Virus record (IMG/VR): IMGVR_UViG_3300012348_000091
Coordinates: 1-54,362 of that record
Length of the DNA stretch: 54,362 nucleotides
Direction: 5' to 3' (one strand)
Source: a virus
Taxonomy: Duplodnaviria > Caudoviricetes
Position 1 is the stretch's first letter. The number at the start of each line of letters is the position of its first letter. Below the pieces are notes generated by a model. The model was not told where the DNA came from. It saw only the letters and a program-made list of their open reading frames with translations, and ran no database searches. Of the stretch, positions 2,576 through 42,219 are shown in pieces. The position numbers and the translations under genes were made by a program.

Positions 2576-2847
2576 CTCACCGTTCCTTCTAGGCGATCAG
2601 CGACGAGCTTGGCGTAGCCCGCGATGTCGATCCAGCTATCAGCGTAGTTGGGATCACCGTTGACGATGCGCCCGATCTTGTGGAAGATCATGTCGAGGGC
2701 TTCCTGTTGGTCGGGTTCGAGCGCCTTGTTACGCTGCCTTAGGAAACCGGCGGTCAGCACCTTGTAGGTTTGCGTCACATCAGCATGGCCGACGAACGAG
2801 CCGTAACGGCTGCCACGCTCTTCAAGGATTTCGGTTACGTCGGTCAT
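2572..2847 (-). CDS. DUF6378-like all-alpha protein
   Basis: ILEERGSRYG...KIGRIVNGDPNYADSWIDIAGYA signature; start trimmed to the ATGA overlap at 2847. Confidence 0.75.
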   Translation of the reverse strand: MTDVTEILEERGSRYGSFVGHADVTQTYKVLTAGFLRQRNKALEPDQQEALDMIFHKIGRIVNGDPNYADSWIDIAGYAKLVADRLEGTVR

Positions 2848-3623
2848 TTCAGGTTGCCTCCGCTCTTCAGAATGTCGCCACCAAAGATGTAGGTGCCGAC
2901 GTGGTTGAGCTTGATGAACGGGTGGGCATGGATGATCCCACCGTGCTGCCGCCATAGTTCGCAGAAGTGGTAATCCTCTGAGAGCAGCGCTCCGGTTGCG
3001 TCGATAGACGTAGCGAAGAACTCGTGGGTCAGCGGCTTGTCGTACTCACCCGTCTCTGGGTTCTTGAACGACGATACCCGGTAGGTCGGCACGTGGGGTT
3101 TGAGATGCTCGAACACGCCCCGCTTGATGAGCATGAAGCCAGTGCCACCGTGGCGGACCTCGATGCAGCCAGACTCATCGCTGTGCACGTCACCGCTGCC
3201 GACCATATTGAACACGAAGGCTCCGGCGTAGTTCTCCAGCCCCTGCTTGCCACCCTGTGCAGCGCGCTCCACGCTGTCCCAGTTGACCTCCTTCTTGGGG
3301 TAGATACCACAGGCGATGTCCTTGTCGGCCAGCATCAGTTGAGCGATGGCCTCCCCGTCGAAGCCAATGTCGGCGTCGATGAACATCAGGTAGTCGTGGT
3401 CGCTCTCAAGGAACACACGGGCCAACTCGTTGCGGGCACGGGTGATGAGGCTCTCGTTCATGATCTGACACCATGCCACGTTGACGCCGATCTCACGCAT
3501 CTTCTGCATGGTCATCAGCAGCCCCTGCACATAGTGCCCAGTGCACATACCACCGTACATGGGAGTGGCGATCATCAGGCTCGGACGCTTCTCCACCGGC
3601 TTCACTTTGATTTCATCAGTCAT
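2844..3623 (-). CDS. GT-A fold glycosyltransferase-like protein (early copy)
   Basis: LMIATPMYGG, SLITRARN, YLMFIDAD (DxD), GTGFMLIKR, LSEDYHFC, LNHVG. Confidence 0.8.
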   Translation of the reverse strand: MTDEIKVKPVEKRPSLMIATPMYGGMCTGHYVQGLLMTMQKMREIGVNVAWCQIMNESLITRARNELARVFLESDHDYLMFIDADIGFDGEAIAQLMLADKDIACGIYPKKEVNWDSVERAAQGGKQGLENYAGAFVFNMVGSGDVHSDESGCIEVRHGGTGFMLIKRGVFEHLKPHVPTYRVSSFKNPETGEYDKPLTHEFFATSIDATGALLSEDYHFCELWRQHGGIIHAHPFIKLNHVGTYIFGGDILKSGGNLK

Positions 3624-4237
3624 GCGAACCATCCCTTAATCGTGCCCCAGAAGCCACGCGCCTTCTGAGCTTCTTCCAGTTCCTGCTTGGTCTCAGCCAA
3701 GTCAATGAGGGTGCCCTTGAGCACGTCGATCAGCGCTTCCTGCTGGTCGGTCATGAGGTTCATTGCCCTATAGATGTCCGCCAAGTGCCGCATAATCAGC
3801 ACCTCACGTTCAGCGATAGGGGTCGTCGGGCCTTCCGGCTCCGGGGTGATCTGCGTGAGGTTCGTCACGGGCTTGGGTGCTTCCACAGGCGGCGCAGCCG
3901 GTTCTTCGATCCAGTCATCAACCAGCTTCTGCACATACGCAGGGACAGGCTTCGGCTCCGGTTTCGGCTTCGGTTCGTACTTCGGCGCTGAGCGAGTCTT
4001 GTACTTAACGTGGTAGGTGCTGTACGTGTACCGCTTCCCGCTGGGGGATATACTTGTCTTCTTCCCACGGGATTCTAGCTCACCACGGAGGTGCATACGG
4101 GACACCATGGTCTGCACCCCGGAGGGGCTAAGGTGTGGTAGCTGTGCGGCTATCTCCGGGGTAGTCATGTCTGGGTTGCGGTGCAGCAGCTTGTAGATGA
4201 GTCTGGCGGTTTCGCCCTTCTTAGTTCTCTTACGCAT
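3620..4237 (-). CDS. Winged-HTH protein with coiled coil and amphipathic C-terminal tail
   Basis: MTTPEIAAQLPHLSPSGVQTMVSRM HTH, Pro-rich linker, C-terminal RGFWGTIKGWFA; RBS AGGAG before ATG 4237. Confidence 0.55.
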   Translation of the reverse strand: MRKRTKKGETARLIYKLLHRNPDMTTPEIAAQLPHLSPSGVQTMVSRMHLRGELESRGKKTSISPSGKRYTYSTYHVKYKTRSAPKYEPKPKPEPKPVPAYVQKLVDDWIEEPAAPPVEAPKPVTNLTQITPEPEGPTTPIAEREVLIMRHLADIYRAMNLMTDQQEALIDVLKGTLIDLAETKQELEEAQKARGFWGTIKGWFA

Positions 4238-6020: not shown

Positions 6021-6213
6021 GATTTGCTCCTTCCTTCTGCTTGCGTAGCTCATTGAAATAGGTCCGCCGTTTGATGCGCCGGTCTTCCTTGGCGACGATC
6101 TGCCGTATGCGCTCTGGGGTTAGCCCGTGCTTTTCCCCCAATGCCCGTAGGGTTGTTCCCGCTTCCTTGCGCTCCCTCCAGATGGCTAAGTTGCGCTCGG
6201 GCTTAGCCACCAT
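6010..6213 (-). CDS. Sigma70 region 4-like HTH protein
   Basis: TLRALGEKHGLTPERIRQI resembles region 4.2 (TLEEVG..F.VTRERIRQI); ATG 6213. Confidence 0.75.
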   Translation of the reverse strand: MVAKPERNLAIWRERKEAGTTLRALGEKHGLTPERIRQIVAKEDRRIKRRTYFNELRKQKEGANHGG

Positions 6214-8023
6214 AGCTTGCTCCCATCTTGCTCTCACAGTTGAGCGGCAGCAGCGATGCCCACTTGGGGCGGATACGCATACACTGCTCAACGAACTCAC
6301 GGGCTTCGCCCGCCTGCGCTACTGGTGCGATAGCACCCACAGCGTCATGCACCGTCATCACCACGCGATAGCGCCGTGCGACCATCAACATCTGCTCACC
6401 GATCACGATGCGGGCCAGCGCCTGACAGACATTCTCAACGCACTTGCCGCCATAGATGCGGCTCGTCAGCGTAGCCCGGCCCTTCTTCTGGTCGTAGACC
6501 ATCTCGGACTTGCCGTTAGGCTGCATCACCCAACGCAGGTTCGGGTATTGCAGGCGCAGCCCATTGGGTAGCTTGATGCCCTCTGCACCGTACACCAGCA
6601 GCACCCCATCCCGGCCAAGCGGCGCGGTCTGGTTGTTCGCCATTGCATCCAGCGCGTCACCCGCAGCCCGCCACAGTTTCGGGATCATGGGGTAGGTCTC
6701 GCGGTACACGCTGATGATGCGCTTGCACTCGGCCAGTTCCATCTGGACGTTGAACGTCTTAAGCTGAGCCTGAAACTTCTCAGCGCCCATACCGTAGCCG
6801 CAGCCAAGGATGGTGGTCTTACCCACGAACCGCTGCGCGTCCGTCACTTCTTCGATGGGCACCCCGTAGATGGAGGAGGCCATGATCTTATACACGTCCT
6901 CGCCAGCGTCGAATGCAGCCACAAGGTCATCCTGCCCGGCCAGCCACGCCAAGGTGCGCGCTTCGATCTGACTGCTATCGCAGTCGATGAAGCAGTATCC
7001 CTCTGGAGCGCGTATCGCCTTCTTCAGTGGCGACTTGCGGGGGAGGTTCTGCATGTTGACCTTGTCGTCCCCGCCCCAGCGTCCCGTGTGGGCCGCATAG
7101 TAACGTAGGGGGATGGGCAGGGTCCCGCGATCAGCGATGCGAATAAAACGCTCCGTGCGCGTCTCTTCCAGCGTAGACTTGACACCCAGACGCGCCGCCA
7201 CAATCGCCTGAACGATGGGGTTCTCATGCTCCAGCAGCGCCTTGAAGTCCTCGTCGTTCTTAGCAAAGGCATAGGTCTCCTTGCCCGTGGCCGGGCTGAT
7301 CTTCATGGGCGGCTCGACACCAATGTCTCGCAGCGTATCAGCAAGCTGCCCGTTGGACATCAGGTTGTCCTTGGAGATGAGCGCCTTCCCCAGTAGCTCG
7401 TTCTTCTTGTGCTGCACCTCGGACAGGTGATCCTTGAGGATGGTCGCGTCCAACTCTAGCACTGGCTCAGTAAACATCCGGATCGTCAGGTCGATCAGGC
7501 GGAACTCGATTGCCGGGAAGCCCACGGCGATGCGGTTGAACAGCGCGTAGGTCTTCTCCACGTCGTTGATGCAGTACTCCCCGTAGCGGGCAAGCTCCTC
7601 AGCAGTGAAGTCCAGTCGCCCCTTACCTAGCGCATGGATAACCTCGTCGCCCTTCTCGCCCAGTCCGTACCGCTCCAGCGCCTTGGCGAGGCTGTTGCCA
7701 GCGTTCGGCCCATCTATGGCGCGCAGCATGGAGAGGGTGTCAGCGATCCGCTTGGGGCGGATGTCGAAGTGCCAGTTGAGGATGGCCATGTCGAACATGG
7801 CGTTGTGCGCCACAGCGATGGACTCGTCCCATGGGAACTGGTCGAGGAAGGCTTTAGTCTGCTTCTCAGGGCCAGAGAACCACTGGGTCTCCCCGTCATT
7901 GACCTTTACAGCTACGCCGATAGTCTCAAAGTAGTCATGGCGGATATACTCCTCGGTCGTCATCTTGGACAGACTGAAGGTGCGGTCGTAGAACGTCTCG
8001 AAGTCTATGGTGATGATGTTCAC
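6203..8023 (-). CDS. Family A DNA polymerase with 3'-5' exonuclease
   Basis: Exonuclease IDFET, AHNAMFD, YCIND; polymerase motifs TGRW, NMQNLP, DSSQIEAR, RFVGKTTILGCGYG, TVHD. Confidence 0.95.
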   Translation of the reverse strand: MNIITIDFETFYDRTFSLSKMTTEEYIRHDYFETIGVAVKVNDGETQWFSGPEKQTKAFLDQFPWDESIAVAHNAMFDMAILNWHFDIRPKRIADTLSMLRAIDGPNAGNSLAKALERYGLGEKGDEVIHALGKGRLDFTAEELARYGEYCINDVEKTYALFNRIAVGFPAIEFRLIDLTIRMFTEPVLELDATILKDHLSEVQHKKNELLGKALISKDNLMSNGQLADTLRDIGVEPPMKISPATGKETYAFAKNDEDFKALLEHENPIVQAIVAARLGVKSTLEETRTERFIRIADRGTLPIPLRYYAAHTGRWGGDDKVNMQNLPRKSPLKKAIRAPEGYCFIDCDSSQIEARTLAWLAGQDDLVAAFDAGEDVYKIMASSIYGVPIEEVTDAQRFVGKTTILGCGYGMGAEKFQAQLKTFNVQMELAECKRIISVYRETYPMIPKLWRAAGDALDAMANNQTAPLGRDGVLLVYGAEGIKLPNGLRLQYPNLRWVMQPNGKSEMVYDQKKGRATLTSRIYGGKCVENVCQALARIVIGEQMLMVARRYRVVMTVHDAVGAIAPVAQAGEAREFVEQCMRIRPKWASLLPLNCESKMGASYGG

Positions 8024-8283
8024 TTGTCTGCTCCTTCAAGCCTACGTGTTGCTTCCGTGTAGGCACCCAGTTCGTCTGGGACGTTGATGATGTGCATGAT
8101 GCCGGGACGGATAACCCGCTTCCCCTTTTTCATATGCGTGTGCTCGCTGCTGTCCCATGGTTCGACCTTGGTGACGCGCTTCCGTTTGTGGAAGACAGCC
8201 CAACCCATCTCGTACTCCATGCCGAACAAGGCGTTCAATCCGGGAAGTAGCTCCTTGAGAAGCTGTGCGCGGGAGATAGCCAT
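8020..8283 (-). CDS. Small protein beginning with a copy of the major capsid N-terminus
   Basis: MAISRAQLLKELLPGLNALFG is identical to residues 1-21 of 28283..29194; its stop overlaps the polymerase start (GTGA). Confidence 0.75.
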   Translation of the reverse strand: MAISRAQLLKELLPGLNALFGMEYEMGWAVFHKRKRVTKVEPWDSSEHTHMKKGKRVIRPGIMHIINVPDELGAYTEATRRLEGADK

Positions 8284-8285
8284 GG

Positions 8286-8414
8286 TTACCCCCACCACTC
8301 CTCTTCCATGATCTCGCGCTCTTCGGGGGTGATCTCTGGGCGCGTGAGGATGCCGTAAACCGTCACCCCCACCACACCCAGTATGAACAGCGCCAGCCAG
8401 TTGTCGCTCGTCAT
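8286..8414 (-). CDS. 42-aa membrane peptide
   Basis: Manual translation MTSDNWLALFILGVVGVTVYGILTRPEITPEEREIMEEEWWG; fills the gap between neighbours. Confidence 0.6.
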   Translation of the reverse strand: MTSDNWLALFILGVVGVTVYGILTRPEITPEEREIMEEEWWG

Positions 8415-8418
8415 CCCA

Positions 8419-8598
8419 CTAGCCCTTGATGCTCAGGGGGCAGAGGCGATGGCCCACATTCAGCACGGTGCCGTTGCCGTATTTGCACATCTGCTGGCCG
8501 TTCTCATACCACTGCGCGGTCAGGTAGTAGGTCATCTGCTGTGCAACTACCGGCGTAGCGGTAAGAGCCAGTGCGGCTGCGATAACGATCTTCTTCAT
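8419..8598 (-). CDS. Small secreted protein with two cysteines
   Basis: Signal peptide MKKIVIAAALALTATPVVA; RBS AAGGAG. Confidence 0.7.
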   Translation of the reverse strand: MKKIVIAAALALTATPVVAQQMTYYLTAQWYENGQQMCKYGNGTVLNVGHRLCPLSIKG

Positions 8599-8822
8599 TT
8601 GTATTCTCCTTCTCCAATGAACGTAGCAACCTGCCTCATCCCGTGCTTCCTGAGCCACGTGGTGATGGCGTCCACTTCAGCCTTCACGGCGATGTCGATC
8701 TCTAGCTGCCGCGCTGCGGCTTGCGCATCGAGCACACTGTCGAACCACAGCACCCCACCATTGAGGTCGCGTATCCAATATTGTTGCTCTTTCTCCGACC
8801 AATGTGCTTTCGGTGTTGTCAC
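8595..8822 (-). CDS. Hypothetical protein
   Basis: Overlap-coupled ORF in the early operon. Confidence 0.6.
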   Translation of the reverse strand: MTTPKAHWSEKEQQYWIRDLNGGVLWFDSVLDAQAAARQLEIDIAVKAEVDAITTWLRKHGMRQVATFIGEGEYK

Positions 8823-8944
8823 CAGTCCTCTCCCTCATCAATCAGTTCCGGCATATTCTCACGCAGCCATAGGAGGCGGCGGTATTCGGCCATGTAGTCA
8901 GCTTGCCTCTCGGCCCAGCGGACGAGGTAGCTGTCGGGGATCAT
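8819..8944 (-). CDS. 41-aa protein, paralog copy A
   Basis: MIPDSYLVRWAERQADYMAEYRRLLWLRENMPELIDEGEDW; 4-nt overlaps on both sides. Confidence 0.7.
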   Translation of the reverse strand: MIPDSYLVRWAERQADYMAEYRRLLWLRENMPELIDEGEDW

Positions 8945-9123
8945 GCGCGCGGCTCCGCGAGTGCGGCGCGGGCGTATTGCCTAGCCACCGCGCAAGCATC
9001 TGGATCAATCGCCAGCGCGGCAAACAAACCCCGCAGCCGCTCGTTCTCGGCAGTCAGGGCTTCGATGCGGTCGGCTTGCTCCTTGCAGGTGGCGCAAAAA
9101 TTAGTGCGAATGTTGTCGGTCAT
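8941..9123 (-). CDS. Small coiled-coil protein
   Basis: CxxC plus RIEALTAENERLR. Confidence 0.6.
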   Translation of the reverse strand: MTDNIRTNFCATCKEQADRIEALTAENERLRGLFAALAIDPDACAVARQYARAALAEPRA

Positions 9124-9413
9124 TTCCCGTCTCCCTTCATTGCGCGGATGGTGGTGGCGATGCGGGAGCTATCCGTTTCGGTTAGATGCTCTGTCAGGCC
9201 ACGTACCGACTTGGCCCATTCTAGTGCGCGTTCATGGAAACAATCCGCCACCTTCGCCGCTTCCTCCAACACCTCATCCCTCACCGCTGCGAGGTGGGTG
9301 CGCAGCCGCTCGTTCTCGGCAGTCAGTGCTTCGATGCGTCCGCACAGTTCTATAACTTGTGTGTGCCTTGCGGCCTTCTTGCTGAGAACCCGCTTCACCA
9401 GATCGTCGGTCAT
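9120..9413 (-). CDS. Small coiled-coil protein
   Basis: MTDDLVKR...RIEALTAENERLR...LEEAAKVA; ATGA overlap. Confidence 0.6.
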   Translation of the reverse strand: MTDDLVKRVLSKKAARHTQVIELCGRIEALTAENERLRTHLAAVRDEVLEEAAKVADCFHERALEWAKSVRGLTEHLTETDSSRIATTIRAMKGDGK

Positions 9414-9700
9414 TTCCCAAACTCCTCTTCCCAAAGTTCGATGGCGCGGACGCAATGGTTAATTTCGCGCTCCGTAGCGGCTTCCGCCAGTGTGGGACTA
9501 CCATGTGATATTGCTTGCACCGCACACAGCAGCTTGCGATCTGGCGGCGGCTGTTCGTAGCGTTCGATCATGTCGCAGAGGGCGCGAAAGGTGCCATGGT
9601 TTTCATAGTAACTGCGCAGATTGCCAACGGTGTCGTCCCATTCGCTCCGCTTCCCAGCTTCGATAAGCACCCAGTCGGGCGGTGTTTGCTTGTCGGTCAT
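9410..9700 (-). CDS. Hypothetical protein
   Basis: MTDKQTPPDW; ATGA overlaps. Confidence 0.6.
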   Translation of the reverse strand: MTDKQTPPDWVLIEAGKRSEWDDTVGNLRSYYENHGTFRALCDMIERYEQPPPDRKLLCAVQAISHGSPTLAEAATEREINHCVRAIELWEEEFGK

Positions 9701-9942
9701 TTCGTCTCTCTCAGTGCGGCGCGGGCGCTCTTCTTTACGTCTAGCACAAGATCATCAATTGCGACTTGCGCCCTATGGTAGTGCGATCCGACAATGTCGA
9801 TCGTGTTGGCGAGGTGAGCCAACGCCTCCCGCAGCCGCTTGATCTCAGCCGCTTGGGCTTCGATGGTGTCGGTAATGGTATCGTCATGCCCGCAGGTGCA
9901 GGTGTATTCTCGGCCAGAACAGCCACGTTCGTGGTCACTCAC
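9697..9942 (-). CDS. Hypothetical Cys/His-rich coiled-coil protein
   Basis: DHERGCSGREYTCTCG then IEAQAAEIKRLREAL; GTG start overlaps the upstream stop. Confidence 0.6.
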   Translation of the reverse strand: MSDHERGCSGREYTCTCGHDDTITDTIEAQAAEIKRLREALAHLANTIDIVGSHYHRAQVAIDDLVLDVKKSARAALRETK

Positions 9943-10064
9943 CACTCATCTCCCTCATCAATCAGTTCTGGCATGTGCTCACGCAGCCATAGGAGGCGGC
10001 GATATTCGGCCACGTAGTCAGCCTGCCGCTCGGCCCACTCGGCTAGGTAGCGGTCAGGGATCAT
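9939..10064 (-). CDS. 41-aa protein, paralog copy B
   Basis: MIPDRYLAEWAERQADYVAEYRRLLWLREHMPELIDEGDEW; diverged direct repeat of 8819..8944. Confidence 0.7.
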   Translation of the reverse strand: MIPDRYLAEWAERQADYVAEYRRLLWLREHMPELIDEGDEW

Positions 10065-10357
10065 ACCCCCGTCACCTTCACAATCTCAGGTTGCCACATG
10101 GATATCTTCTCCACTTTCTTCTCGTAGAGAGGATGCCGTTCCATGATGTATTCGGCCCGCTGCACACCATACATGACGGTGGCATGGTCGCGGCCTAGGA
10201 ACCTACCTATCCTTGTGTAAGACCAGCCGCGCATCCGCAGGGCTGCGTAGAGGGCGAAGCGGGCTTCGACGATAGGTTTGCTACGCTTCGGACTCACTAG
10301 GTCTTTGACCGGCACCCCAAACAAGGTGGCACACAGCTTGATGATCTCGCCCTTCAT
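10061..10357 (-). CDS. Stand-alone DnaA domain IV-like HTH protein
   Basis: DLVSPKRSKPIVEAR...SYTRIGRFLGRDHATVMYG resembles the DnaA RDHTTV signature. Confidence 0.8.
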   Translation of the reverse strand: MKGEIIKLCATLFGVPVKDLVSPKRSKPIVEARFALYAALRMRGWSYTRIGRFLGRDHATVMYGVQRAEYIMERHPLYEKKVEKISMWQPEIVKVTGV

Positions 10358-10680
10358 TGGGTGTCGCTCTTTATGATAGAAGTGCCCTGCTTCAGCTTAC
10401 GGATAAGCTCCGGCAGGGTATCCCAGTTGGTCTCGTTAACCACCACAGCCACGCCGCCAGCGAGACGGATGTTCTCGATCTCGCGCACTTGTAGGGCGGT
10501 CGGCTTGTTGGTGCCTGCCTTGCACTCGATGGCGAGGAACAGCCCGTTGAGGCAGGCCACGATGTCAGGCACACCGCTACGTCCGTAGCCGTGGGTTGCG
10601 GGAAAGAAGTAGTAAGCACCCTCAGCCTTGAGGATGCCCACAACCTTATCTTTCACCTTTTTCTCAGGTGTAGCTGCCAT
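10354..10680 (-). CDS. VRR-NUC nuclease / Holliday junction resolvase-like
   Basis: PEKKVK...SGVPDI...AIECKAG..KPTALQ. Confidence 0.85.
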   Translation of the reverse strand: MAATPEKKVKDKVVGILKAEGAYYFFPATHGYGRSGVPDIVACLNGLFLAIECKAGTNKPTALQVREIENIRLAGGVAVVVNETNWDTLPELIRKLKQGTSIIKSDTQ

Positions 10681-18524: not shown

Positions 18525-18865
18525 AGACAATGTATAATGTAATAATGCTATGAAACCAAAACCGGGTTCTTACAAAAGAATCTTACAAAAGGACTGCCCA
18601 AAAATCAGGGGGTTGTGTAGGAAAAATGGGGTAATGTAATAATGTAATAAAAATTTAACTACTACTACAGGATTCCGGGATTTTGGCTACAACGGTGTAA
18701 GAATCAGCGAGCAGGCTCGCCCGATCCCGGAAATTGAATAAGACCTCAAAAATTTCATTACATTATTACATTAGGGCCGAAGTCCTTGAAAACGCAAAGG
18801 AAACACCCTCAAAAAAACCTTACAAAAGAATCTTACATTAGCCCATTTTATTACATTACAAACTA
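18525..18865. repeat. AT-rich repeat region, candidate replication origin
   Basis: 19-bp direct repeat at 18569 and 18819; perfect 17-bp inverted repeat 18632-18648/18757-18773; inner 8-bp inverted repeat on the same axis. Confidence 0.6.
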
Positions 18866-25620: not shown

Positions 25621-25811
25621 GTAGCGACCTATTGAAGTACTTAGCCGAGAAAGTGAACGCTGAGATCGCCGTCATGAGCGACGATCTCGCACGCGGCACT
25701 GCCAAGGATCATGGAGAGTACAAGTATGCCTGCGGGATCATCCGTGGGCTTATGATCGCAAACGGCCTCTTCGCTGAGACCGCACAACGCATGGAAAACG
25801 ACGATGACTGA
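25617..25811 (+). CDS. Small hypothetical protein
   Basis: GTAKDHGEYKYACGIIRGL; ATGA overlap. Confidence 0.65.
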   Translation: MSSDLLKYLAEKVNAEIAVMSDDLARGTAKDHGEYKYACGIIRGLMIANGLFAETAQRMENDDD

Positions 25812-26214
25812 CCTCATTGACCTTTCCGGCAAGCCCCTCCCCAAGGTGGGTGCCGCCTCCGAACTTCCCATCGAGGAACGCGCAAGGCAGCTTCCTGAAC
25901 CGTCGGGCTATCGCCTCCTTTGTGGTATCCCGGAGATCGAGAAGACCACTGCCGGGGGCATCATCAAGGCGGATGAGACCATTCGTCATGAAGAACTGCT
26001 CGCCACGGTGCTGTTCGTTCTGAAAGTCGGCCCTGACGCCTACGCGGACGAGAAGCGCTTCCCGACCGGCCCATGGTGCAAGGAGGGGGACTTCATCCTC
26101 GTGCGCCCCCATGCCGGTTCGAGGCTCAAGATTCATGGCCGTGAGTTCCGGATCATCAATGATGATGCGGTTGAAGCTGTTGTGGAAGACCCGAGAGGCA
26201 TCTCTCGCGCCTAA
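25804..26214 (+). CDS. GroES/Cpn10-like co-chaperonin
   Basis: PSGYRLL, TAGGII, VLKVGP, KEGDFI, FRIINDD.VEAVV. Confidence 0.85.
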   Translation: MTDLIDLSGKPLPKVGAASELPIEERARQLPEPSGYRLLCGIPEIEKTTAGGIIKADETIRHEELLATVLFVLKVGPDAYADEKRFPTGPWCKEGDFILVRPHAGSRLKIHGREFRIINDDAVEAVVEDPRGISRA

Positions 26215-26247: not shown

Positions 26248-27186
26248 ATGGCTACGAAGCCCGATGATGACTTCCAGTGGGAAGTTGAAGACGAAACCCC
26301 TGTTTCCGACACGCCTGAAATTGATGTTGAAGACGATACCCCCGAGGCAGACCGTGGGCGCGAGCCTATGCCGAAGGAGGTCGTTGACGAACTCGAAGCC
26401 GATGAACTCGAAGAGTACTCGGAAAAGGTCAAGCTGCGCCTCAAGCAGATGAAGAAGGTCTGGCACGACGAGCGCCGCGAGAAAGAGCGGTACCAGCGTG
26501 AGCAGAACGAAGCCCTGAGCGCTGCACAGCGCCTCCTCGAAGAGAACCGCCGCCTCAAGTCCACCCTGTCCGAGGGTGAGCAGACGCTGGTTGGTAGCTT
26601 CAAGCAGACCGCTGAGTACGAGCTTGCGCAGGCCAAACGTGAGTACAAGGACGCCTATGAAGCAGGTGACACCGACCGCGTTCTGGACGCACAGCAGAAG
26701 CTAAGCGAAGCGCAATATAAGCTCCAACAGCTTGCGGGCTATCGTCCTACTTTACAAGGTGCAGAGGACGAGGTACAACTTCCTCAACAGCAGGTCCAGA
26801 TTCCTCAGCCTGACTCCAAGACTATGGCGTGGCAAGAGCGCAATACGTGGTGGGGTACTGATCCTGAGATGACGGCATCTGCTCTTGGGCTTCACCAGAA
26901 GCTTGAGAAAGAACGTGGTCCGCAGTTTGTGGGCACCGACGAATATTGGGGCGCTATCGACACAACGATGCGCCGTCGCTTCCCTGAATACTTCGGGGAA
27001 GATAAAGCGACCGAAGGCACTGCGAAGGCTCAACGCGCCTCGAAACCTGCCAATGTAGTCGCGCCAGCTTCGCGTAGCACGTCCCCCAAAAAGATTGTGC
27101 TGAAACAGTCCCAGATCACAATCGCCAAGCGGTTGGGTCTAACCCCCGAGCAATATGCCCGGGAACTGATGAAGATGGAGCGTTGA
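26248..27186 (+). CDS. Putative scaffolding protein
   Basis: Acidic N-terminus, coiled coil, C-terminal IAKRLGLTPEQYA; lies between portal and capsid. Confidence 0.65.
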   Translation: MATKPDDDFQWEVEDETPVSDTPEIDVEDDTPEADRGREPMPKEVVDELEADELEEYSEKVKLRLKQMKKVWHDERREKERYQREQNEALSAAQRLLEENRRLKSTLSEGEQTLVGSFKQTAEYELAQAKREYKDAYEAGDTDRVLDAQQKLSEAQYKLQQLAGYRPTLQGAEDEVQLPQQQVQIPQPDSKTMAWQERNTWWGTDPEMTASALGLHQKLEKERGPQFVGTDEYWGAIDTTMRRRFPEYFGEDKATEGTAKAQRASKPANVVAPASRSTSPKKIVLKQSQITIAKRLGLTPEQYARELMKMER

Positions 27187-28282: not shown

Positions 28283-29194
28283 ATGGCAATTTCACGCGCA
28301 CAGCTTCTCAAGGAGCTTCTGCCCGGACTGAACGCCTTGTTCGGTCTCGAATATGCTCGCTACGGCGAAGAGCACAAGGAAATCTTCGAAACGGAGACTT
28401 CTGAGCGTTCGTTCGAAGAAGAAACCAAGCTCTCGGGCTTCTCGGCTGCGCCGGTGAAGAACGAAGGTTCGGCCATCGCTTACGACAACGCGCAGGAAGT
28501 CTTCACGGCTCGCTACAACCATGAAACGATTGCCCTCGGGTTCTCGCTCACGGAAGAAGCCATCGAAGATAACCTCTACGACTCGCTGTCGTCGCGGTAC
28601 ACCAAGGCTCTGGCTCGTGCCATGGCCTACACGAAGCAGACCAAGGCTGCTGCGGTCCTGAACAATGGCTTCGACACCGACTATGCCGGTGGCGACGGAC
28701 AGCCGCTGTTCTCGAACGCTCACCCGCTGGTCTCTGGTGGCACCAACTCGAACATCCCCAGCACCCCGGCTGACCTGAACGAAACGTCGCTTGAAGCGGC
28801 TGTCATTCAGATCGCGGCGTGGACGGATGAACGTGGCCTGCTGATCGCGGCGAAGCCGCGTAAGCTGGTGGTCCCGCCGAGCCTGATGTTCGTTGCGACC
28901 CGCCTGTTGGAGACTGAACTCCGCACGGCGACCGCTGACAACGACATCAACGCTCTGAAGTCGAACGGCTCGATCCCGGAAGGTTACACCGTTAACCACT
29001 TCCTGACCGACACCGACGCGTGGTTCCTGACCACCGACGTGCCGAACGGCCTCAAGCACTTCGTGCGTTCGCCCATGCAGAACAGCATGGACGGTGACTT
29101 CGACACCGGCAACGTCCGTTATAAGGCTCGTGAGCGTTACAGCTTCGGCTGGTCTGACCCTCTGGGCATGTACGGTTCCGAAGGCGCTGCCTAA
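28283..29194 (+). CDS. Major capsid protein
   Basis: Strong RBS AAGGAG, biased codons, GGDGQPLFS.AHP, KPRKLVVPP, YKARERYSFG; followed by a terminator. Confidence 0.9.
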   Translation: MAISRAQLLKELLPGLNALFGLEYARYGEEHKEIFETETSERSFEEETKLSGFSAAPVKNEGSAIAYDNAQEVFTARYNHETIALGFSLTEEAIEDNLYDSLSSRYTKALARAMAYTKQTKAAAVLNNGFDTDYAGGDGQPLFSNAHPLVSGGTNSNIPSTPADLNETSLEAAVIQIAAWTDERGLLIAAKPRKLVVPPSLMFVATRLLETELRTATADNDINALKSNGSIPEGYTVNHFLTDTDAWFLTTDVPNGLKHFVRSPMQNSMDGDFDTGNVRYKARERYSFGWSDPLGMYGSEGAA

Positions 29195-30208: not shown

Positions 30209-30946
30209 ATGCAGGCGCAAAAAAGCTATGATCTAGCCGGGAAGAGCATCTTCATTGCTCTCCCGGCCTACGACTTCAAGGTGTCCTTGAAGCTGGCCGT
30301 GTCGCTTGCCCGCTTCGCGCAGGCTGCTCCGCAGCACGGTATCGACATTCAGATCGGCAGCATCTGCGGCTGCTCGGTGGTCTCCCGCGCACGCAACCTG
30401 CTCGTGCAGGATTTGCTGGAAAGTCCGTGTGACTACCTCATGTTCATCGACAGCGACATTAACTTCGAGCCGGACGACATCCTGCGTCTCATGGCTTGGG
30501 GTAGCGACCCCAAGAAGGGTATCGTCGCTGGGGTGCCGCGCACGCGGAGCGAGACCAAGACCTACATCGCCAACCTCGAATACGACGAGAATGGCGAGTT
30601 GACCATGAACGGGATGGGTCTGGTCCGCGCTGAGCGCGTGGCCACCGCCTTCATGCTGGTGCGCCGTGAGGTCTTCGAGCAGATGATCGAGGCTCACCCC
30701 GAGTGGAAGTACTACGACAAGAAGACGGATCGCATGATCCCGTGCCTGTTCGACTTCCAACTCACCGAAGAAGGTTACATGGGTGAGGACTACCTGTTCT
30801 GCGACCGCGCCCGTGAGATTGGCTTTGAGGTCTGGGTCGATCCGTCGATCTCGCTCGGCCACATGGGCGTGCAGGAATACATGGGCGATTACGGTAGGGA
30901 CGTTCTCTACCCGATGATCGCTCCTTCGGTGAAGGATGTGGCATGA
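30209..30946 (+). CDS. GT-A fold glycosyltransferase-like protein (late copy)
   Basis: IFIALPAY, VSRARN, YLMFIDSD, TAFMLVRR, GEDYLFC, LGHMG. Confidence 0.8.
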   Translation: MQAQKSYDLAGKSIFIALPAYDFKVSLKLAVSLARFAQAAPQHGIDIQIGSICGCSVVSRARNLLVQDLLESPCDYLMFIDSDINFEPDDILRLMAWGSDPKKGIVAGVPRTRSETKTYIANLEYDENGELTMNGMGLVRAERVATAFMLVRREVFEQMIEAHPEWKYYDKKTDRMIPCLFDFQLTEEGYMGEDYLFCDRAREIGFEVWVDPSISLGHMGVQEYMGDYGRDVLYPMIAPSVKDVA

Positions 30947-35497: not shown

Positions 35498-35977
35498 ATG
35501 GCAATTACGCAAGCAATGTGCACCAGCTTCAAGGCCGAGCTTATGCTCGCCGTGCACGATTTTCGCGCCACTGGTGGCGACACCTTTAAGCTCGCCCTCT
35601 ACACCTCGTCGGCTGACCTGAGCGCGAACACCACGGCGTATACCTCGTCGAATGAGGTCTCGTCGTCGGGCACCAACTACACCGCTGGTGGCGGCACGCT
35701 GGTCAACCTCGGGGTCGTTACGTCGAACAACAACACTTCGACCGGCACCGGCTTCACTGACTTCAGTGACCTGACCTTTGCCAACGCGACGATCACGGCT
35801 CGCGGTGCGTTGATCTACAACACCACCCCGTCGGCCAACTCGAACGCCAACACCACGCTGACCAATGCGGCTGTGTGCTCGCTGGACTTCGGGTCGGACA
35901 AGACCTCGACGGACGGTGACTTCACCATCATCTTCCCGACGGCAACGAACACCACCGCTATTATCCGGATCGCCTAA
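35498..35977 (+). CDS. Putative tail protein
   Basis: FKLALYT, YTAGG, ARGALIYN, LDFGSDK. Confidence 0.65.
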   Translation: MAITQAMCTSFKAELMLAVHDFRATGGDTFKLALYTSSADLSANTTAYTSSNEVSSSGTNYTAGGGTLVNLGVVTSNNNTSTGTGFTDFSDLTFANATITARGALIYNTTPSANSNANTTLTNAAVCSLDFGSDKTSTDGDFTIIFPTATNTTAIIRIA

Positions 35978-38900
35978 TGCCCCTTATCCTCGCTGATCGT
36001 GTCCGCGACACCACCACTACGACTGGTACTGGCACGGTCACGCTCAGCGGGACCGCACCGACGGGGTATCAGAACTTCTCGGTAATCGGGAACGGCAACA
36101 CCACCTACTACACGATCAATGCTGGCTCCCAGTGGGAAGTCGGCATTGGCACCTACTCGTCCACTGGACCGACCCTCGCCCGCAACACGGTGCTGGAGTC
36201 GAGCAACGCTAACGCTCTGGTGGACTTCGCTGCGGGTACCAAGGACGTCTTCGTCACTTACCCTTCGGACAAGTCGGTCAACTACGACGAGAGTAACAAC
36301 GTCGGGATCGGGACCACCAGCCCCAGTGCTATCCTCGAAACGTCAAGCAGCACCGACGCTAGCATTTTTGCTTCGACTTATGTCGGCAGCGGGGTCGGTG
36401 GTAGTTTCATTGGCCGCAAGGCTCGCGGCTCCCAAAGCTCGCCATCCGGCATATTGAGCGGGGACACGCTCACTTCAGTGCTTGGGCGTGGATACACGTC
36501 TGCGGGGGCTTTCAGCGGTAACGTAGGTGCTGTCGCTATCGTCGCGGCGGAAAACTTTAGCTCTACCGCCAACGGCACGAATATTACTTTTGCCACCACG
36601 GCGACGGGTGCGACATCGCGCACCGAACGTATGCGCATCGACAGCGCGGGTAGCCTCGGGATCGGGACGAGCAGCCCTGCGGAGCGGTTGACTGTAAACT
36701 CGGCCAGCAGTGAGTTTGCCATCCAATGGAGCGGCCCCGGCAACGATTGGGTTTTGGCCTCGGCGGCGAACCGTGCCTACATCCGCAACAAAACGGCTGG
36801 CGTGGAAGCCCTAACCATCCTCAACGCGGGCAACGTTGGGATCGGGACGAGCGCACCGGGCAGTACTCTTGATGTGGGTGGTACAATTCGCACTAGCGCG
36901 GGGGGCAGTGATCCCGGCACGGGTTCGGTTTTCTATTTCGTCGGCTCTGGCGCTTTTCAGACCGTCGTAGCTGGTGCGGCTTTTGCCGTTAACACCGGAG
37001 CCAACAACGCCCGTACCGAGCGTATGCGCATTTCCATCGACGGCTCCACAACGCTCAACGTCGGCGGCGTCTCCAGTACCCACCAGTTCCTCTACAACGA
37101 GAACGGCGCTGAAATCCAACTCTCGGACGCTACTGGCAACGGGCCGATCCTGATCGACAACTCGGGTGGCTTGGCTCGGTTCTACAAGGTCGGCAACGGC
37201 GGCATGGCTGTCGGCACCACGGGCACTGGCGCGTTTCAGTTCCTAACCAACAACACCGAACGTATGCGCATCGACAACGCAGGTTTGGTAGGTATCGGCA
37301 CCTCCGCACCCAGCGCGCGGCTGGACGTTCGCTCTGGCGCAGGGGCGGATAACATCATCGCCAACCGCGCGGGTAACGCGGCATACATGGTGTTGCAGGG
37401 GACTTCATTCCCCAACTTCAACCAAGTGCAGTCCTACGATGGGTCCGGCAACCTATACTGGGCTATTGGTGGAACCGGCACCGCAAATACCTTGGCCTTC
37501 TCTACCAATGGTAGCAACGAGCGGATGCGCATCGACGCCAGCGGCAATCTCAGCCTTGGCACCACCGTAGGGACTGCGAGGCTTCGCGTGTCTGCTGGGG
37601 GTCGAATTGACGCTCCCGTTCTGGGCAACGTCACAAATTACCCCGCCTTCTTCAGCAACAACGATCCTAGCTACGGCCTAGGTATTGGGACAAACGGGTC
37701 AACCGGCCATGTGTGGCTCCAAGCCCAACGTAGCGACAGCGCGGTGGCCTACAACATCACGCTCAACGAAGCAGGCGGCAACGTCGGGATCGGGACGAGC
37801 GCCCCCCAAGGGCTGCTACACGTTGTCGCGGGGGCGAATAACACCCTGCTGTTCCGTGGCCCTATCAACTACGCAACTGGCGGCTCGATCTACGCGGTGA
37901 ACTCCGCGAACAGCGCCATCACACCAATGGAGTTCGGTGCCTCCTCGTACTTCTTTGCCGGAGGCAACGTCGGGATCGGCACCAGCAGCCCCAGCGAGCG
38001 GTTGGACACGGGTACGGGTAACACCCGGACACAGGCGCTTGTGGTTAGCGGCGACCAGCACCTCATCTACAGTGCCTCCGCTACCGAGCTTGGCATCCGC
38101 ATCGGCACGGGCGGGCCGTTCTTTGGGATCGGTACTACCGGCTCCAGTAACATGCGCATCAACAGTGCGTCGGGCGGCGACATGCTCTTCGCCATCGGCG
38201 GCACCGAACGTATGCGGCTCAACAACAGCGGTCAGCTTCTCGTCGGCACGTCCTCCGGTGGCCGCACGGTCTGCATTAATGCTGCCGACAACTGGATACG
38301 CCAAGTTAACCCCAGCCGTTCGTGGTTGATCGGGTGTGGCACCGGTACTGCCTATACCATCTTCGATGAGACGGCAGGTACCGCACGATTTAGTATCGAC
38401 ACCGCAGGCGTGTGGAACGGACCCAACGCAATCGCTCTCGGTGCAGGTCAGAACCTCGACAACCGGCTTGAGATCGGTACGGGCCGCACGGGCAGCAACT
38501 TCGCCTACCTCGACCTGATCGGTGATACTACCTACACCGATTACGGCCTACGTCTGATCCGTGGGAATGGTGGTCCGAACGCCATCTCGCAGCTTATCCA
38601 CCGGGGCACCGGGGATATGTACATTACCACGCAAGACGCGGCTCCGTTGTACATCCAGACGAACAACGCCACGCGCGCGTTTTTCCAGTCCGACGGCACG
38701 ATGATAATGAACGGCAGCCTCCTCGTCGGACGGCAAACCAGCGGATCGAACGTCAACACCAACAACGACACCGGCTCGTTCTCCGTGCGCGGTGATGGCA
38801 GCAACGCTGCGTCCATGTCCTTCCACCGTATAGGTGTCTTCGCCATCAACATGGGCCTTGGCACTGATGCGGTCTTCCGTATCGGTGGGTGGTCGGCCAG

Positions 38901-39237: not shown

Positions 39238-39238
39238 C

Positions 39239-39574
39239 ATGGCAGTCACCTACACTTGGTCCGTCGTGCAGATGGACGCATACCCCGAAGAAGACGGCGA
39301 GACCGATGTGGTCTTCAACGTCCACTGGACCCTCGCTGGCATCGACCAGACCTACCAAGGCTACGCCTACGGCACGCAGGGCGTAAGCATCGACCCCGAC
39401 GCGCCGTTCACTCCCTACGCCGATCTGACCGAAGCGCAGGTCATCGGGTGGGTGCAGGCTGCCATGGGACCGGAGCAGGTCGCCGCGCTTGAGGCCAACG
39501 TCGCCCAGCAGATCGAAAACCAGATTAACCCCCCTGTTGTTACCCCGCCCCTTCCGTGGGCACCAGCGCCTTAA
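39239..39574 (+). CDS. Tail-fibre associated protein
   Basis: DVVFNVHW, FTPYADLTEAQVIGWV, PPLPW. Confidence 0.65.
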   Translation: MAVTYTWSVVQMDAYPEEDGETDVVFNVHWTLAGIDQTYQGYAYGTQGVSIDPDAPFTPYADLTEAQVIGWVQAAMGPEQVAALEANVAQQIENQINPPVVTPPLPWAPAP

Positions 39575-39583
39575 GGAGTATTT

Positions 39584-39745
39584 ATGATTAAGCTCGAACT
39601 CGAAATCGAAGCCGTGAACGACATCCTGACTGTCCTCGGCCAACTTCCGACCGCCTCTGGCGCGTGGCCGCTGATGCAGCGCATCCGTGCGCAGGCTGAA
39701 GCTCAGGCGGAGCCGGAAAAACCCACTGAAGCAGAAGCTGCGTAA
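39584..39745 (+). CDS. Small tail-fibre associated protein
   Basis: Manual translation MIKLELEIEAVNDILTVLGQLP; AAGGAG RBS. Confidence 0.6.
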   Translation: MIKLELEIEAVNDILTVLGQLPTASGAWPLMQRIRAQAEAQAEPEKPTEAEAA

Positions 39746-39760
39746 TAAGAAGGGCCGACA

Positions 39761-41010: not shown

Positions 41011-41020
41011 GGAGAATACC

Positions 41021-41203: not shown

Positions 41204-41241
41204 TCTGCTAGTATAACCCCTAACCGGAAGGAGGGTCACTG

Positions 41242-42210: not shown

Positions 42211-42219
42211 GGGACGGAC

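What the first reader, a model, noticed from the sequence alone, without database searches (positions are those of the whole stretch)
8020..8283. Early gene carrying a copy of the phage's own major capsid N-terminus (candidate capsid decoy)
Seen: the ORF starts MAISRAQLLKELLPGLNALFGMEY and the capsid (28283) starts MAISRAQLLKELLPGLNALFGLEY, 23 of 24 residues identical. Over those 24 codons I count 9 synonymous differences and 1 non-synonymous codon, so this is not an assembly duplicate or a fresh copy. After residue 24 the proteins look unrelated. The gene lies 20 kb from the capsid gene, on the opposite strand, and overlaps the DNA polymerase start, so it should be made before the capsid. Established: some defence systems (e.g. 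CapRel SJ46, Lit) are triggered by major capsid proteins, and satellites interfere with helper capsid assembly. Inference: the peptide could be a decoy for a capsid-sensing defence, a dominant-negative poison of competing phages' assembly, or a tag that loads the C-terminal cargo into the head. It could also be a fragment captured from a related phage's capsid gene.
Basis: partly seen in the sequence, partly recalled or inferred. Interest (0 to 1): 0.88.

Follow-up and report, generated by a model that had tools for sequence, protein, structure and literature searches.

The report
Early phage protein mimicking capsid N-arm
A small accessory gene next to this phage's DNA polymerase begins with a copy of the first 24 residues of the phage's own major capsid protein, kept by selection; it belongs to an undescribed family in which this N-terminal piece is swapped like a cassette, so it probably acts as a molecular mimic of the capsid arm.

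Summary
ORF 8020-8283 (-), 87 aa, shares 23 of its first 24 residues with the major capsid protein (28283-29194, +). The DNA is 61/72 identical, with dS about 0.96, dN 0.028 and dN/dS about 0.03. Its stop overlaps the DNA polymerase start.

It is not a one-off. It belongs to an unannotated family of 81 protein clusters of 67-103 aa. Each has an orphan-fold C-domain and a loosely attached N-terminal helix. In 39 of 81 clusters that helix matches the capsid N-arm at 17 or more of 24 positions; in 41 it matches at 9 or fewer.

The N-module is exchanged between near-identical C-domains; well-supported branches force at least 6 switches. Its codons differ from those of capsid genes, so it is not a fresh capture. 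In the capsid-like class the N-module is 75% identical pairwise, against 44% for the C-domain.

The gene is accessory. Sister phages with 95-96% identical capsids carry the other N-module, and some contigs lack the gene precisely.

Function is inferred only. My best guess is a mimic that engages the capsid N-arm's partner in head assembly. An anti-defence decoy is the main rival. No annotated family matched, and two paper searches found no phage capsid decoy.

The parts
8020..8283 (-). 87-aa small accessory gene (ATG 8283, stop TGA 8020-8022). It is a member of the new family.
   Evidence: 17 full-length homologues and 80 family clusters. The same position before the DNA polymerase is seen in L003, L007 and L008.
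8212..8283 (-). N-module, codons 1-24: a copy of the capsid N-arm, predicted to be a helix (residues 5-19).
   Evidence: 23/24 aa and 61/72 nt identical to 28283-28354, dN/dS 0.03. Inverted repeat I1. AF2 predicts a helix with pLDDT about 61-65.
8023..8211 (-). C-domain, codons 25-87: beta strands plus a C-terminal helix, an orphan fold. Conserved motifs are W-A-V-[FY], KVEPW and DE[LMI]xAY.
   Evidence: AF2 pLDDT about 90 over residues 31-80. Family alignments A1, A3 and A4. No hit in Pfam, PHROGs, PDB, BFVD or the Atlas.
28283..28354 (+). Codons 1-24 of the major capsid gene (the N-arm), the sequence that is copied.
   Evidence: It lies N-terminal to the Pfam Phage_capsid_4 match, which covers residues 31-297. 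Calling it the N-arm is an inference from HK97-fold topology.
28283..29194 (+). Major capsid protein gene (303 aa).
   Evidence: Pfam Phage_capsid_4 and Mu-like_gpT. PHROG 371 major head protein. 72% identical to the Planktothrix phage Pag-Yong1 capsid and 65% to HTVC023P.
6203..8023 (-). Family-A DNA polymerase. Its GTG start overlaps the small gene's stop, which suggests translational coupling.
   Evidence: The same 4-nt overlap is seen in L003, L007 and L008. In G002 and G006 another small gene lies between.
26248..27186 (+). Candidate scaffolding protein (312 aa): acidic N-terminus, long charged middle region (coiled coil judged by eye, no prediction run), and a nearly invariant C-terminal helix-turn-helix-like end. 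It is the inferred partner of the capsid N-arm.
   Evidence: It lies between the portal and capsid genes. Sequence. C-terminal conservation in 22 homologues and in G001, G002 and G006. The role is inferred; no family match.

Best explanation
**What is shown.** The gene encodes a two-part accessory protein of a previously unannotated phage family.
- One part is a compact C-domain of about 60 aa.
- The other is a loosely attached N-terminal amphipathic helix that behaves as an exchangeable module.
- In this allele the module is a copy of the major capsid protein's N-arm, kept by selection.

**What is inferred.** I think the helix works as a molecular mimic.
- It would occupy the site that the capsid N-arm normally engages during head assembly. 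The most likely site is the conserved C-terminal helix-turn-helix-like end of the candidate scaffolding protein (26248-27186). A neighbouring capsid subunit is the alternative.
- The C-domain would thereby be brought to, or into, assembling proheads. This resembles a T4-style capsid-targeting tag, but one derived from the capsid itself.
- A weaker variant is that it tunes or blocks assembly.
- The binding partner, the timing and the consequence are all untested.
For: **The mimicry is real and selected.**
- 23/24 aa identical with dS 0.96 and dN 0.028 between the two copies in one genome.
- In the 41 capsid-like members the N-module is 75% identical pairwise against 44% for the C-domain. It stays at 74% in the 343 pairs whose C-domains are under 40% identical.
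- Small genes share their own codons (GCT ATC TCC) against the capsids' GCA ATT TCA. The module therefore descends among small genes and is not re-copied each time.

**The N-helix behaves as a separate module.**
- Three cross-class pairs have C-domains 92-98% identical but different N-modules: P0013/P0126, P0146/P0139 and P0174/P0171.
- The C-domain tree needs 15 label changes, and starred branches force at least 6.
- AF2 places the helix with low confidence (pLDDT about 61-65 and 49-55) beside a well-modelled C-domain in both classes.

**The N-arm is a known assembly handle.**
- In 80alpha the scaffold's C-terminal helix-and-hook contacts the capsid N-arm helix (PMC5644958, passages read).
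- In SPP1 the scaffold binds the capsid's N-terminal helix, and the N-arm later makes contacts between capsomeres (PMC6813328, passages read).
- The window's candidate scaffold has a near-invariant C-terminal end.

**All N-modules look related in outline.** In 72 of 81 clusters the protein begins with M plus A, G or P, and the N-module is about 26-31 residues long with hydrophobic residues at similar spacing (judged by eye). An HMM of the non-capsid modules scores capsid N-arms slightly above shuffles: at most 2 of 200 shuffles reach the real score for 5 of 10 capsids. This is weak evidence.
Against: - The gene sits in the minus-strand replication block, coupled to the DNA polymerase, not among the head genes. 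That position is not typical for a virion component.
- It is dispensable for assembly. G001 and G002 have 95-96% identical capsids and near-identical scaffold C-termini, yet carry a non-capsid N-module. Contigs in two runs join 8021 to 8288 without the gene.
- 35 of 41 capsid-like members differ from capsids at position 18 (E, not A), so most are not perfect copies.
- No prohead protease was found among the 10 head-module ORFs scanned. A T4-like cleavage step is therefore unsupported.
- No binding, expression or virion data exist.
Confidence: 0.38

Rival explanations
1. It is an anti-defence decoy or antagonist. The protein is made early and presents the most conserved stretch of the capsid to a host immune sensor that recognises capsid protein. 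The C-domain blocks or diverts the sensor before the real capsid appears. The alternative N-modules would address other sensors.
For: - Its distribution is accessory and patchy.
- It lies in a variable early region among small membrane and secreted ORFs.
- N-modules are swapped repeatedly between near-identical C-domains, and the C-domain evolves fast, as is common in conflict genes.
- Several defence systems sense major capsid proteins: Avs7 and Dsr1 (bioRxiv 10.64898/2026.01.04.697583, passages read) and CapRel SJ46 (PMC13728456, passages read).
Against: - An early copy of a trigger epitope would be expected to set off an abortive-infection sensor rather than silence it.
- The Avs7 preprint describes recognition through extended fold-level interfaces, not a 24-residue arm.
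- Two paper searches turned up no phage-encoded capsid decoy.
- The host and its defences are unknown.
Confidence: 0.27
2. It is a weapon in competition between phages or against satellites. The early-made N-arm mimic acts as a dominant-negative cap on scaffold or capsid subunits. It would spoil head assembly by co-infecting relatives or capsid-hijacking satellites that use the same highly conserved capsid.
For: - The capsid is 95-96% identical across phages whose other genes differ widely, so there is a shared target.
- The gene is accessory and its modules are swapped.
- Satellites are known to compete at exactly this interface: CpmB and the scaffold both bind at the capsid N-arm in 80alpha/SaPI1 (PMC5644958).
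Against: - The mimic would poison the producer's own identical capsid as well. No self-immunity feature is visible.
- No satellite sequence was seen.
Confidence: 0.12
3. There is no mimic function. The N-helix is just a structural or oligomerisation helix of the small protein. The capsid-like version arose by illegitimate recombination and spread by linkage, and its conservation reflects the helix's own role.
For: - Half of the family works with unrelated-looking helices.
- Sister phages with the same capsid use the other module.
Against: - The capsid-like module is far more conserved (75%) than the alternative modules (27%) and than its own C-domain (44%).
- It stays 17-23 of 24 identical to the capsid arm across C-domains down to about 19-25% identity.
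- The window's allele matches the capsid at positions 15 and 18, where its closest relative P0001 (identical C-domain) does not.
Confidence: 0.13
4. The function lies in nucleic acid. The shared 72 nt would be an RNA or DNA element, such as a common translation-initiation region, a regulator's site or a recombination substrate, rather than a peptide.
For: A 23-nt core (CGCGCACAGCTTCTCAAGGAGCT) is identical in the window's small gene, in L007 and L008, and in the window's and G001's capsid genes.
Against: - That core carries synonymous changes in G003-G006 small genes and in G002 and G006 capsid genes, while the peptide is kept.
- dS is about 1 with dN/dS 0.03, which points to protein-level selection.
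Confidence: 0.04

Closest known systems
T4 internal proteins (IPI, IPII, IPIII and others) with the N-terminal capsid targeting sequence (PMC3012670, passages read)
   Same: They are small, fast-evolving proteins. A short N-terminal peptide is conserved far better than the rest and serves as an address into the assembling head. The cargo can be an anti-restriction protein.
   Different: - In the account read, T4's tag directs the proteins into the scaffolding core; that it is removed by the prohead protease, and that it does not copy the capsid protein's own N-terminus, are recalled, not checked.
- Here the tag is the capsid's own first 24 residues.
- No protease was found.
- The gene lies beside the DNA polymerase.
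- Presence in virions is unknown.
SaPI1 CpmB and the 80alpha scaffolding protein (PMC5644958, passages read)
   Same: This is molecular mimicry at the capsid N-arm / scaffold C-terminus interface. Two proteins with like helices compete for one site.
   Different: - CpmB mimics the scaffold side and is encoded by a satellite.
- Here the capsid side is mimicked, and the gene is the phage's own.
SaPIbov5 Ccm, a capsid-protein homologue that redirects assembly (PMC8569155, abstract only, in the listing)
   Same: A second gene resembling the capsid protein acts on the helper's capsid assembly.
   Different: - Ccm is a full HK97-fold homologue encoded by a satellite.
- The protein here shares only the N-arm and has an unrelated C-domain (no capsid Pfam match).
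Phage proteins sensed by capsid-recognising defences: the major capsid protein and Gp54 for CapRel SJ46, and the major capsid protein for Avs7 and Dsr1
   Same: A small phage protein and the capsid protein can address the same host sensor.
   Different: - Gp54 is described as structurally unrelated to the capsid protein and is a trigger, not a copy.
- No sensor is known for this phage group.

Membership tests
HK97-fold major capsid proteins (Pfam Phage_capsid_4 / Mu-like_gpT) | HK97 core (A and P domains) detectable by the family profile | tested here: not met
   The small protein has 0 Pfam families at E <= 0.01 and 0 PHROGs. The capsid's own Pfam match covers residues 31-297, outside the shared 24 residues.
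HK97-fold major capsid proteins (Pfam Phage_capsid_4 / Mu-like_gpT) | Length of about 300 aa and a position in the head gene module | tested here: not met
   It is 87 aa, lies 20 kb away on the other strand and overlaps the DNA polymerase start.
T4-type internal proteins with a capsid targeting sequence | A short N-terminal peptide conserved much better than the rest of the protein | tested here: met
   In the 41 capsid-like members the N-module is 75% identical pairwise against 44% for the C-domain.
T4-type internal proteins with a capsid targeting sequence | Removal of the tag by a prohead protease | tested here: inconclusive
   No protease family was found among the 10 head-module ORFs scanned with PHROGs or those scanned with Pfam. 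Absence from profile searches is not proof, and cleavage itself cannot be tested here.
T4-type internal proteins with a capsid targeting sequence | The protein is present inside proheads or virions | not testable with these tools
   This needs virion proteomics. tblastn of three family members against the phage collection found no isolate with this gene family.
Anti-defence decoys or inhibitors of capsid-sensing immunity | Accessory, patchily distributed, fast-evolving early gene | tested here: met
   The other N-module is present in G001 and G002. Contigs lack the gene. C-domain identity falls to about 19-25%. Early timing is inferred from position only.
Anti-defence decoys or inhibitors of capsid-sensing immunity | Binds a host sensor and restores plating on hosts that carry it | not testable with these tools
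   The host is unknown and no defence gene is in the window. The PADLOC library was not searched.
Satellite-encoded capsid-redirecting proteins (CpmB, Sid, Ccm) | Encoded by a satellite that lacks its own capsid gene | tested here: not met
   The gene lies in a 54-kb phage record with its own terminase, portal and capsid genes.

The most novel reading that the evidence does not exclude
Phages of this abundant aquatic and soil group carry a cassette system of 'address helices' on a small early effector protein. One cassette is a selected copy of the capsid's own N-arm. The phage would use it either to load an effector into its head through the scaffold's capsid-binding site, or to pre-empt a host sensor that reads the capsid N-arm. 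Either way this is self-mimicry of a structural protein by an accessory gene, which the two paper searches run here did not find described.
Probability: 0.55. Interest if true: 0.85.

Novelty: categorically new. Interest (0 to 1): 0.74.

Why it matters
**If the capsid-arm copy is functional, there are two readings.**
- It may be the first case of a phage copying its own capsid's assembly handle onto a non-structural protein. That would give a natural, minimal tag for loading cargo into HK97-type heads.
- It may be the first natural decoy or antagonist for capsid-sensing immunity.

**Both readings can be tested directly.** The module is 24 residues long, and natural alleles exist with and without it on near-identical C-domains.

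**Broader points.**
- The phage group is abundant. The candidate scaffold alone has more than 7,600 homologue clusters.
- The case shows modular N-terminal swapping in very small phage genes that standard annotation leaves blank.

Tried and rejected
**Searches that found nothing**
- DNA search of 7000-9500 against GenBank phages: no match.
- tblastn of the small protein against GenBank phages: 9 of 10 records match only their own capsid start and 1 is a chance hit at E = 2, with one place per record. The isolates related by capsid (Pag-Yong1, MinM2, HTVC023P/027P, DSL-LC04, 023Pt_psg01, CRP-901/902) therefore lack a second copy at this sensitivity.
- tblastn of two non-capsid-class members, P0123 and P0160: only chance hits at E >= 2.
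- C-domain fold. Foldseek against the PDB gave 0 hits at E <= 0.001, best E = 1.0. Foldseek against BFVD gave 0 at E <= 0.001. The ESM Atlas gave no score >= 0.9, and its best structural row had TM 0.52 to an unrelated long protein. The fold stays an orphan.
- phmmer of the capsid against PDB sequences: 0 hits at E <= 1.
- Do the non-capsid N-modules copy another protein? Six-frame searches of G001 and G002 with their own small proteins at E <= 10 found only the gene itself. The exhaustive profile search with 40 non-capsid members returned 61 representatives, all 48-112 aa and none longer. A 25-residue variable segment gives little power, so this is no proof of absence.

**Hits set aside**
- 691 short proteins had E <= 1 and 120 were listed. 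I fetched 48 of them. 18 are true family members. The other 30 I read as truncated or frameshifted capsid genes: 26 visibly run on in capsid sequence (...RYGEEHKE...) before breaking off or frameshifting, and 4 (P0016, P0017, P0029, P0063) diverge sooner, of which only P0016 visibly returns to capsid sequence. All 30 were set aside as not the phenomenon.
- P0127 (67 aa, N-terminally truncated) was dropped from the tree and the identity counts.

**Jobs and runs without an answer**
- Complex prediction of the small protein with the scaffold C-terminus (residues 190-312): no verdict, score 0.00. It is no evidence either way.
- The look-up of sequencing runs: no RNA holder listed, so expression is untested.
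- In read laying, the depth peak over 8215-8277 comes from capsid genes of abundant relatives mapping to the shared 72 nt. The loose ends continue in capsid sequence. It is not a finding about this gene.

**Ideas rejected**
- Ongoing gene conversion from the capsid gene as the reason for conservation. dS is about 1 within one genome, the codon signatures differ, and A18E is a near-fixed difference.
- The 23-nt identical core as an RNA element. It is not kept in G002-G006.

- Supplementary files of papers were not consulted.
Full report
**1. The observation**

The minus-strand frame 8020..8298 contains an ATG at 8283 that opens an 87-aa protein starting MAISRAQLLKELLPGLNALFGMEY. The 303-aa ORF 28283..29194 (+) starts MAISRAQLLKELLPGLNALFGLEY. 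It is the major capsid protein: Pfam Phage_capsid_4 at 8e-15 and Mu-like_gpT at 1.1e-11, and PHROG 371 major head protein.

The two DNA stretches are 61/72 identical. Nine codons differ synonymously and one non-synonymously. Nei-Gojobori counts give Sd 9.5 of 17.5 sites and Nd 1.5 of 54.5, so dS is 0.96, dN is 0.028 and the ratio is 0.03.

The pair is the longest inverted repeat in the window (72 nt, 86%; the next is 51 nt, 80%). A six-frame search of the record with the small protein finds the capsid start at E = 1.1e-10.

The small gene's TGA overlaps the GTG start of a family-A DNA polymerase (6203..8023). The upstream 42-aa ORF ends 2 nt before ATG 8283.

**2. Setting**

The window is a whole IMG/VR virus record of 54,362 bases, estimated 87% complete. 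A simple ORF map shows two blocks.
- A minus-strand block runs up to about 20.2 kb. It holds the DNA polymerase, an Hjc/VRR-NUC-like nuclease at 10354-10680 and many small ORFs.
- A plus-strand block runs from about 20.3 kb. Its ORFs are, in order: terminase large subunit; portal; a GroES-like protein; a 312-aa protein; 151-aa and 205-aa proteins; the capsid; tail genes.

By capsid, the nearest isolates are:
- Planktothrix phage Pag-Yong1 and Synechococcus phage MinM2 (72%);
- Pelagibacter phages HTVC023P and HTVC027P (64-65%);
- DSL-LC04 and 023Pt_psg01 (about 64%);
- Roseobacter phages CRP-901 and CRP-902 (58%).

The DNA polymerase is of a different lineage. Its best hits are Rhizobium and Pseudomonas phages at 35%. 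None of these isolates holds a second copy of the capsid start (one place per record).

**3. A family, not a one-off**

A word-indexed search limited to proteins of 47-153 aa returned 691 hits at E <= 1. I fetched 48 of the 120 listed.
- 30 I read as truncated or frameshifted capsid genes, and I set them aside. Most visibly continue in capsid sequence before breaking off or frameshifting; 4 diverge sooner.
- 18 are full-length relatives of 82-95 aa. They keep both the capsid-like start and the C-terminal part (alignment A1).

A profile of the C-terminal part alone (A3) then found 80 clusters of 67-103 aa at E <= 0.01 among 285 candidates. With P0010, that makes 81 clusters.

An exhaustive HMMER search of 1.84 billion representatives, using a profile of 40 non-capsid members, gave 61 representatives. 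All are 48-112 aa. No fused or long form appeared.

No Pfam or PHROG family matches:
- the window's protein against Pfam, 0 families;
- five family members against PHROGs, 4 with none and 1 weak hit at E = 0.011;
- 40 members against Pfam, only scattered weak hits, at most 4 of 40 for any family.

**4. Two parts**

AlphaFold2 on A1 gives mean pLDDT 79.8. It models an N-terminal helix (residues 5-19, pLDDT about 61-65) and a well-modelled domain of strands plus a C-terminal helix (residues 28-84; pLDDT about 90 over residues 31-80).

A member of the other class, P0160 with alignment A4, gives the same layout. Its N-helix covers residues 6-27 at pLDDT about 49-55.

The C-domain fold has no match in the PDB, BFVD or the ESM Atlas.

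**5. The N-module is bimodal and exchangeable**

Ungapped identity of each member's start to the capsid's 24 residues falls into two groups:
- 39 of 81 clusters score 17-23;
- one scores 13;
- 41 score 2-9.

The second group carries other helices, for example MAVPLTNMRKALAQSLDDVF... and MAVTLKEMRPFTEAALRDMLEDMEQKA... .

Three cross-class pairs have C-domains 92-98% identical but different N-modules: P0013/P0126, P0146/P0139 and P0174/P0171.

[quoted passage not shown] Starred branches alone force at least 6. Shuffled labels need 27.4 on average, and 0 of 500 shuffles are as low.

The junction lies at the start of the W-A-V-[FY] motif.

**6. Selection on the capsid-like module**

| Class | Members | N-module pairwise identity | C-domain pairwise identity |
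|---|---|---|---|
| Capsid-like (with the window) | 41 | 0.75 | 0.44 |
| Other | 40 | 0.27 | 0.40 |

In the 343 capsid-like pairs whose C-domains are under 40% identical, the N-module is still 0.74 identical.

At the DNA level, the seven distinct small genes for which I hold DNA share codon choices at positions 2-4. They use GCT (GGT in L008), ATC, and TCC, TCT or AGT. Seven capsid genes use GCA, ATT or ATA, and TCA or ACA. Pag-Yong1's capsid, seen only, has GCA ATT TCC. The module has therefore been inherited and exchanged among small genes, not freshly copied from the resident capsid gene each time.

Position 18 is E in 35 of 41 small proteins. It is A in the window's capsid and in 5 of the 9 relatives compared (T in CRP-902; the other 3 have a different motif there).

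The window's allele is one of four with the capsid state at position 18. It differs from its closest relative P0001, whose C-domain is identical, at exactly positions 15 and 18, both towards the capsid sequence. I could not tell whether this is a short conversion tract or point changes. The intervening Leu codon does not match the capsid's.

A 23-nt core is identical between the window's two copies and in L007, L008 and G001's capsid. It carries synonymous changes in G002-G006. I read the constraint as acting on the protein.

**7. An accessory gene**

| Record | Capsid identity to the window | Candidate scaffold C-terminus | N-module of the small gene |
|---|---|---|---|
| Window | - | reference | capsid-like |
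| G006 | 96% | near-identical | capsid-like |
| G001 | 95% | near-identical | other |
| G002 | 96% | near-identical | other |

The other modules of G001 and G002 have no second copy in their own genomes at E <= 10.

The gene directly precedes the polymerase and overlaps its start in the window, G001, L007 and L008. In G002 and G006 another small gene lies between them.

Metagenome contigs laid on 7900-8500 include forms without the gene.
- One contig each in runs X1 (28 letters on the shorter side) and X2 (61 letters) joins 8021 to 8288, skipping exactly this gene.
- One contig in X3 joins 8022 to 8412.
- The likeness cut-off was 80%, so these may be relatives rather than this strain.

The candidate scaffold has more than 7,636 homologue clusters, against 81 for this family. 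Small ORFs are under-called, so this contrast is only rough.

**8. How it may work**

What is shown:
- a conserved small protein;
- a separable N-helix;
- strong protein-level selection for likeness to the capsid N-arm in half of the family;
- recurrent module exchange;
- accessory status.

The rest is inference.

In solved procapsids the capsid's N-terminal helix is the scaffold's docking site. This holds for 80alpha and SPP1, and the listing includes P22 and phi29 papers on the same theme (abstracts only). The N-arm later makes contacts between capsomeres.

The window's 312-aa protein lies between portal and capsid. It has an acidic start, a long charged middle region that by eye looks like a coiled coil (no prediction was run), and a near-invariant end...IAKRLGLTPEQYARELMKMER. 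I take it to be the scaffold, by position and composition only.

A free copy of the N-arm would be expected to bind that end or the N-arm's site on a neighbouring subunit. That could carry the C-domain into proheads, in the manner of T4's capsid targeting sequence, or could modulate assembly. I give this reading 0.38.

The main rival, at 0.27, is an anti-defence role against capsid-sensing immunity. The accessory, fast-evolving, cassette-swapping character fits it. It faces the problem that an early copy of a trigger should fire a sensor rather than silence it.

Three other readings follow:
- competition between phages or with satellites (0.12);
- no mimic function (0.13);
- a nucleic-acid element (0.04).

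The one complex prediction I could run, the small protein with the scaffold's C-terminal 123 residues, gave no verdict and counts for nothing.

A weak hint that all N-modules share ancestry or a common constraint comes from an HMM of the non-capsid modules. It scores capsid N-arms slightly above composition-matched shuffles: at most 2 of 200 shuffles reach the real score for 5 of 10 capsids. For DSL-LC04, 10 of 200 reach it, and the other 4 capsids are not distinguishable or gave no score.

**9. Comparison with what is known, and novelty**

- The protein is not a capsid-family member; it has no HK97 core.
- It resembles T4 internal proteins in having an N-terminal address that is conserved better than the cargo. 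No protease or virion evidence supports membership of that group.
- It is the mirror image of SaPI1 CpmB, which mimics the scaffold side of the same interface.
- Searches of the paper library for 'capsid decoy' with 'phage' (14 papers, the 10 listed all about AAV or gene therapy) and for CapRel with 'major capsid protein' and 'decoy' (4 papers) found no phage-encoded copy of a capsid N-terminus.
- A targeted search for 'N-arm mimic' was not run, and supplements were closed.

I rate the family and the self-mimicry as categorically new in kind. The caveat is that its function is unproven.

**10. Limits**

- The tree rests on 64 columns.
- DNA is held for only seven distinct small genes.
- 'Early' is inferred from position.
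- The 'N-arm' and 'scaffold' labels are inferred from topology and composition.
- No expression, binding or virion data exist.

Noticed in passing
window 3290-3395 (-) and 30431-30518 (+): A second early/late inverted repeat (51 nt at 80% plus 29 nt at 83%). It lies in two paralogous glycosyltransferase-like genes, 2844-3632 (-) and 30209-30946 (+). Pfam gives Glyco_transf_21 above its cut-off and Glycos_transf_2 just below it for the late copy, and Anp1 below its cut-off for both. These look like ordinary paralogues, one in each transcription block.
   Followed up: partly
window 12519, 14497, 15732, 17642, 18358, 20224 (repeat families D6 and D14): A repeated motif TTATCATACTCAGGTATG(G/A)TA recurs six times in the minus-strand block. 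The reverse complement would lie upstream of minus-strand genes, so these may be phage-specific promoters. The sigma-70 scan found no excess of sites (7 found against 6.2 expected).
   Followed up: no
window 8819-8956 vs 9939-10076, and 9032-9069 / 9301-9338 / 9830-9867: There are local direct repeats: 138 nt at 85%, and 38 nt at 97% and 76%. They lie within a run of small ORFs that share the peptide ALTAENERLR. This is a variable region of duplicated small early genes between the nuclease and the finding.
   Followed up: no
window 8286-8414 (-) and 8419-8598 (-): Directly upstream of the finding lie two small ORFs, both conserved in L007. One is a 42-aa ORF with one hydrophobic stretch (LALFILGVVGVTVYGIL). 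The other is a 59-aa ORF with a signal-peptide-like start (MKKIVIAAALALTATPVVAQQ). They look like small membrane or secreted accessory genes. The reading is by eye only.
   Followed up: no
L009:946-1137 and L019:2720-3001: The family's C-terminal helix (DELGAYVEATRRLEGAE, or AKDELEAMIRFKQL) also occurs on other small proteins with different N-terminal parts, next to other genes. Mosaicism therefore extends to the C-terminal helix.
   Followed up: no
window 25804-26214 (+): A GroES-like co-chaperonin gene lies in the head module, between the portal and the candidate scaffold (PHROG 3188 at 1.1e-10, Pfam Cpn10 at 5e-5). It is also annotated in Pag-Yong1. It may be relevant to capsid folding.
   Followed up: no
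window 18632-18773: An AT-rich inverted repeat (25-nt arms, 92%, 92 nt apart) lies in a stretch without long ORFs, about 1.5 kb from the switch between the two transcription blocks. It could be an origin or a regulatory region.
   Followed up: no
window 36297-43250: There are many dispersed repeats of a 30-83-nt unit (GGGATCGGGACGAGC......GAACGTATGCGCATCGAC...) inside the large tail-region ORFs 35977-39237 and 42220-44079. They look like repeated protein motifs in tail fibre-like genes.
   Followed up: no
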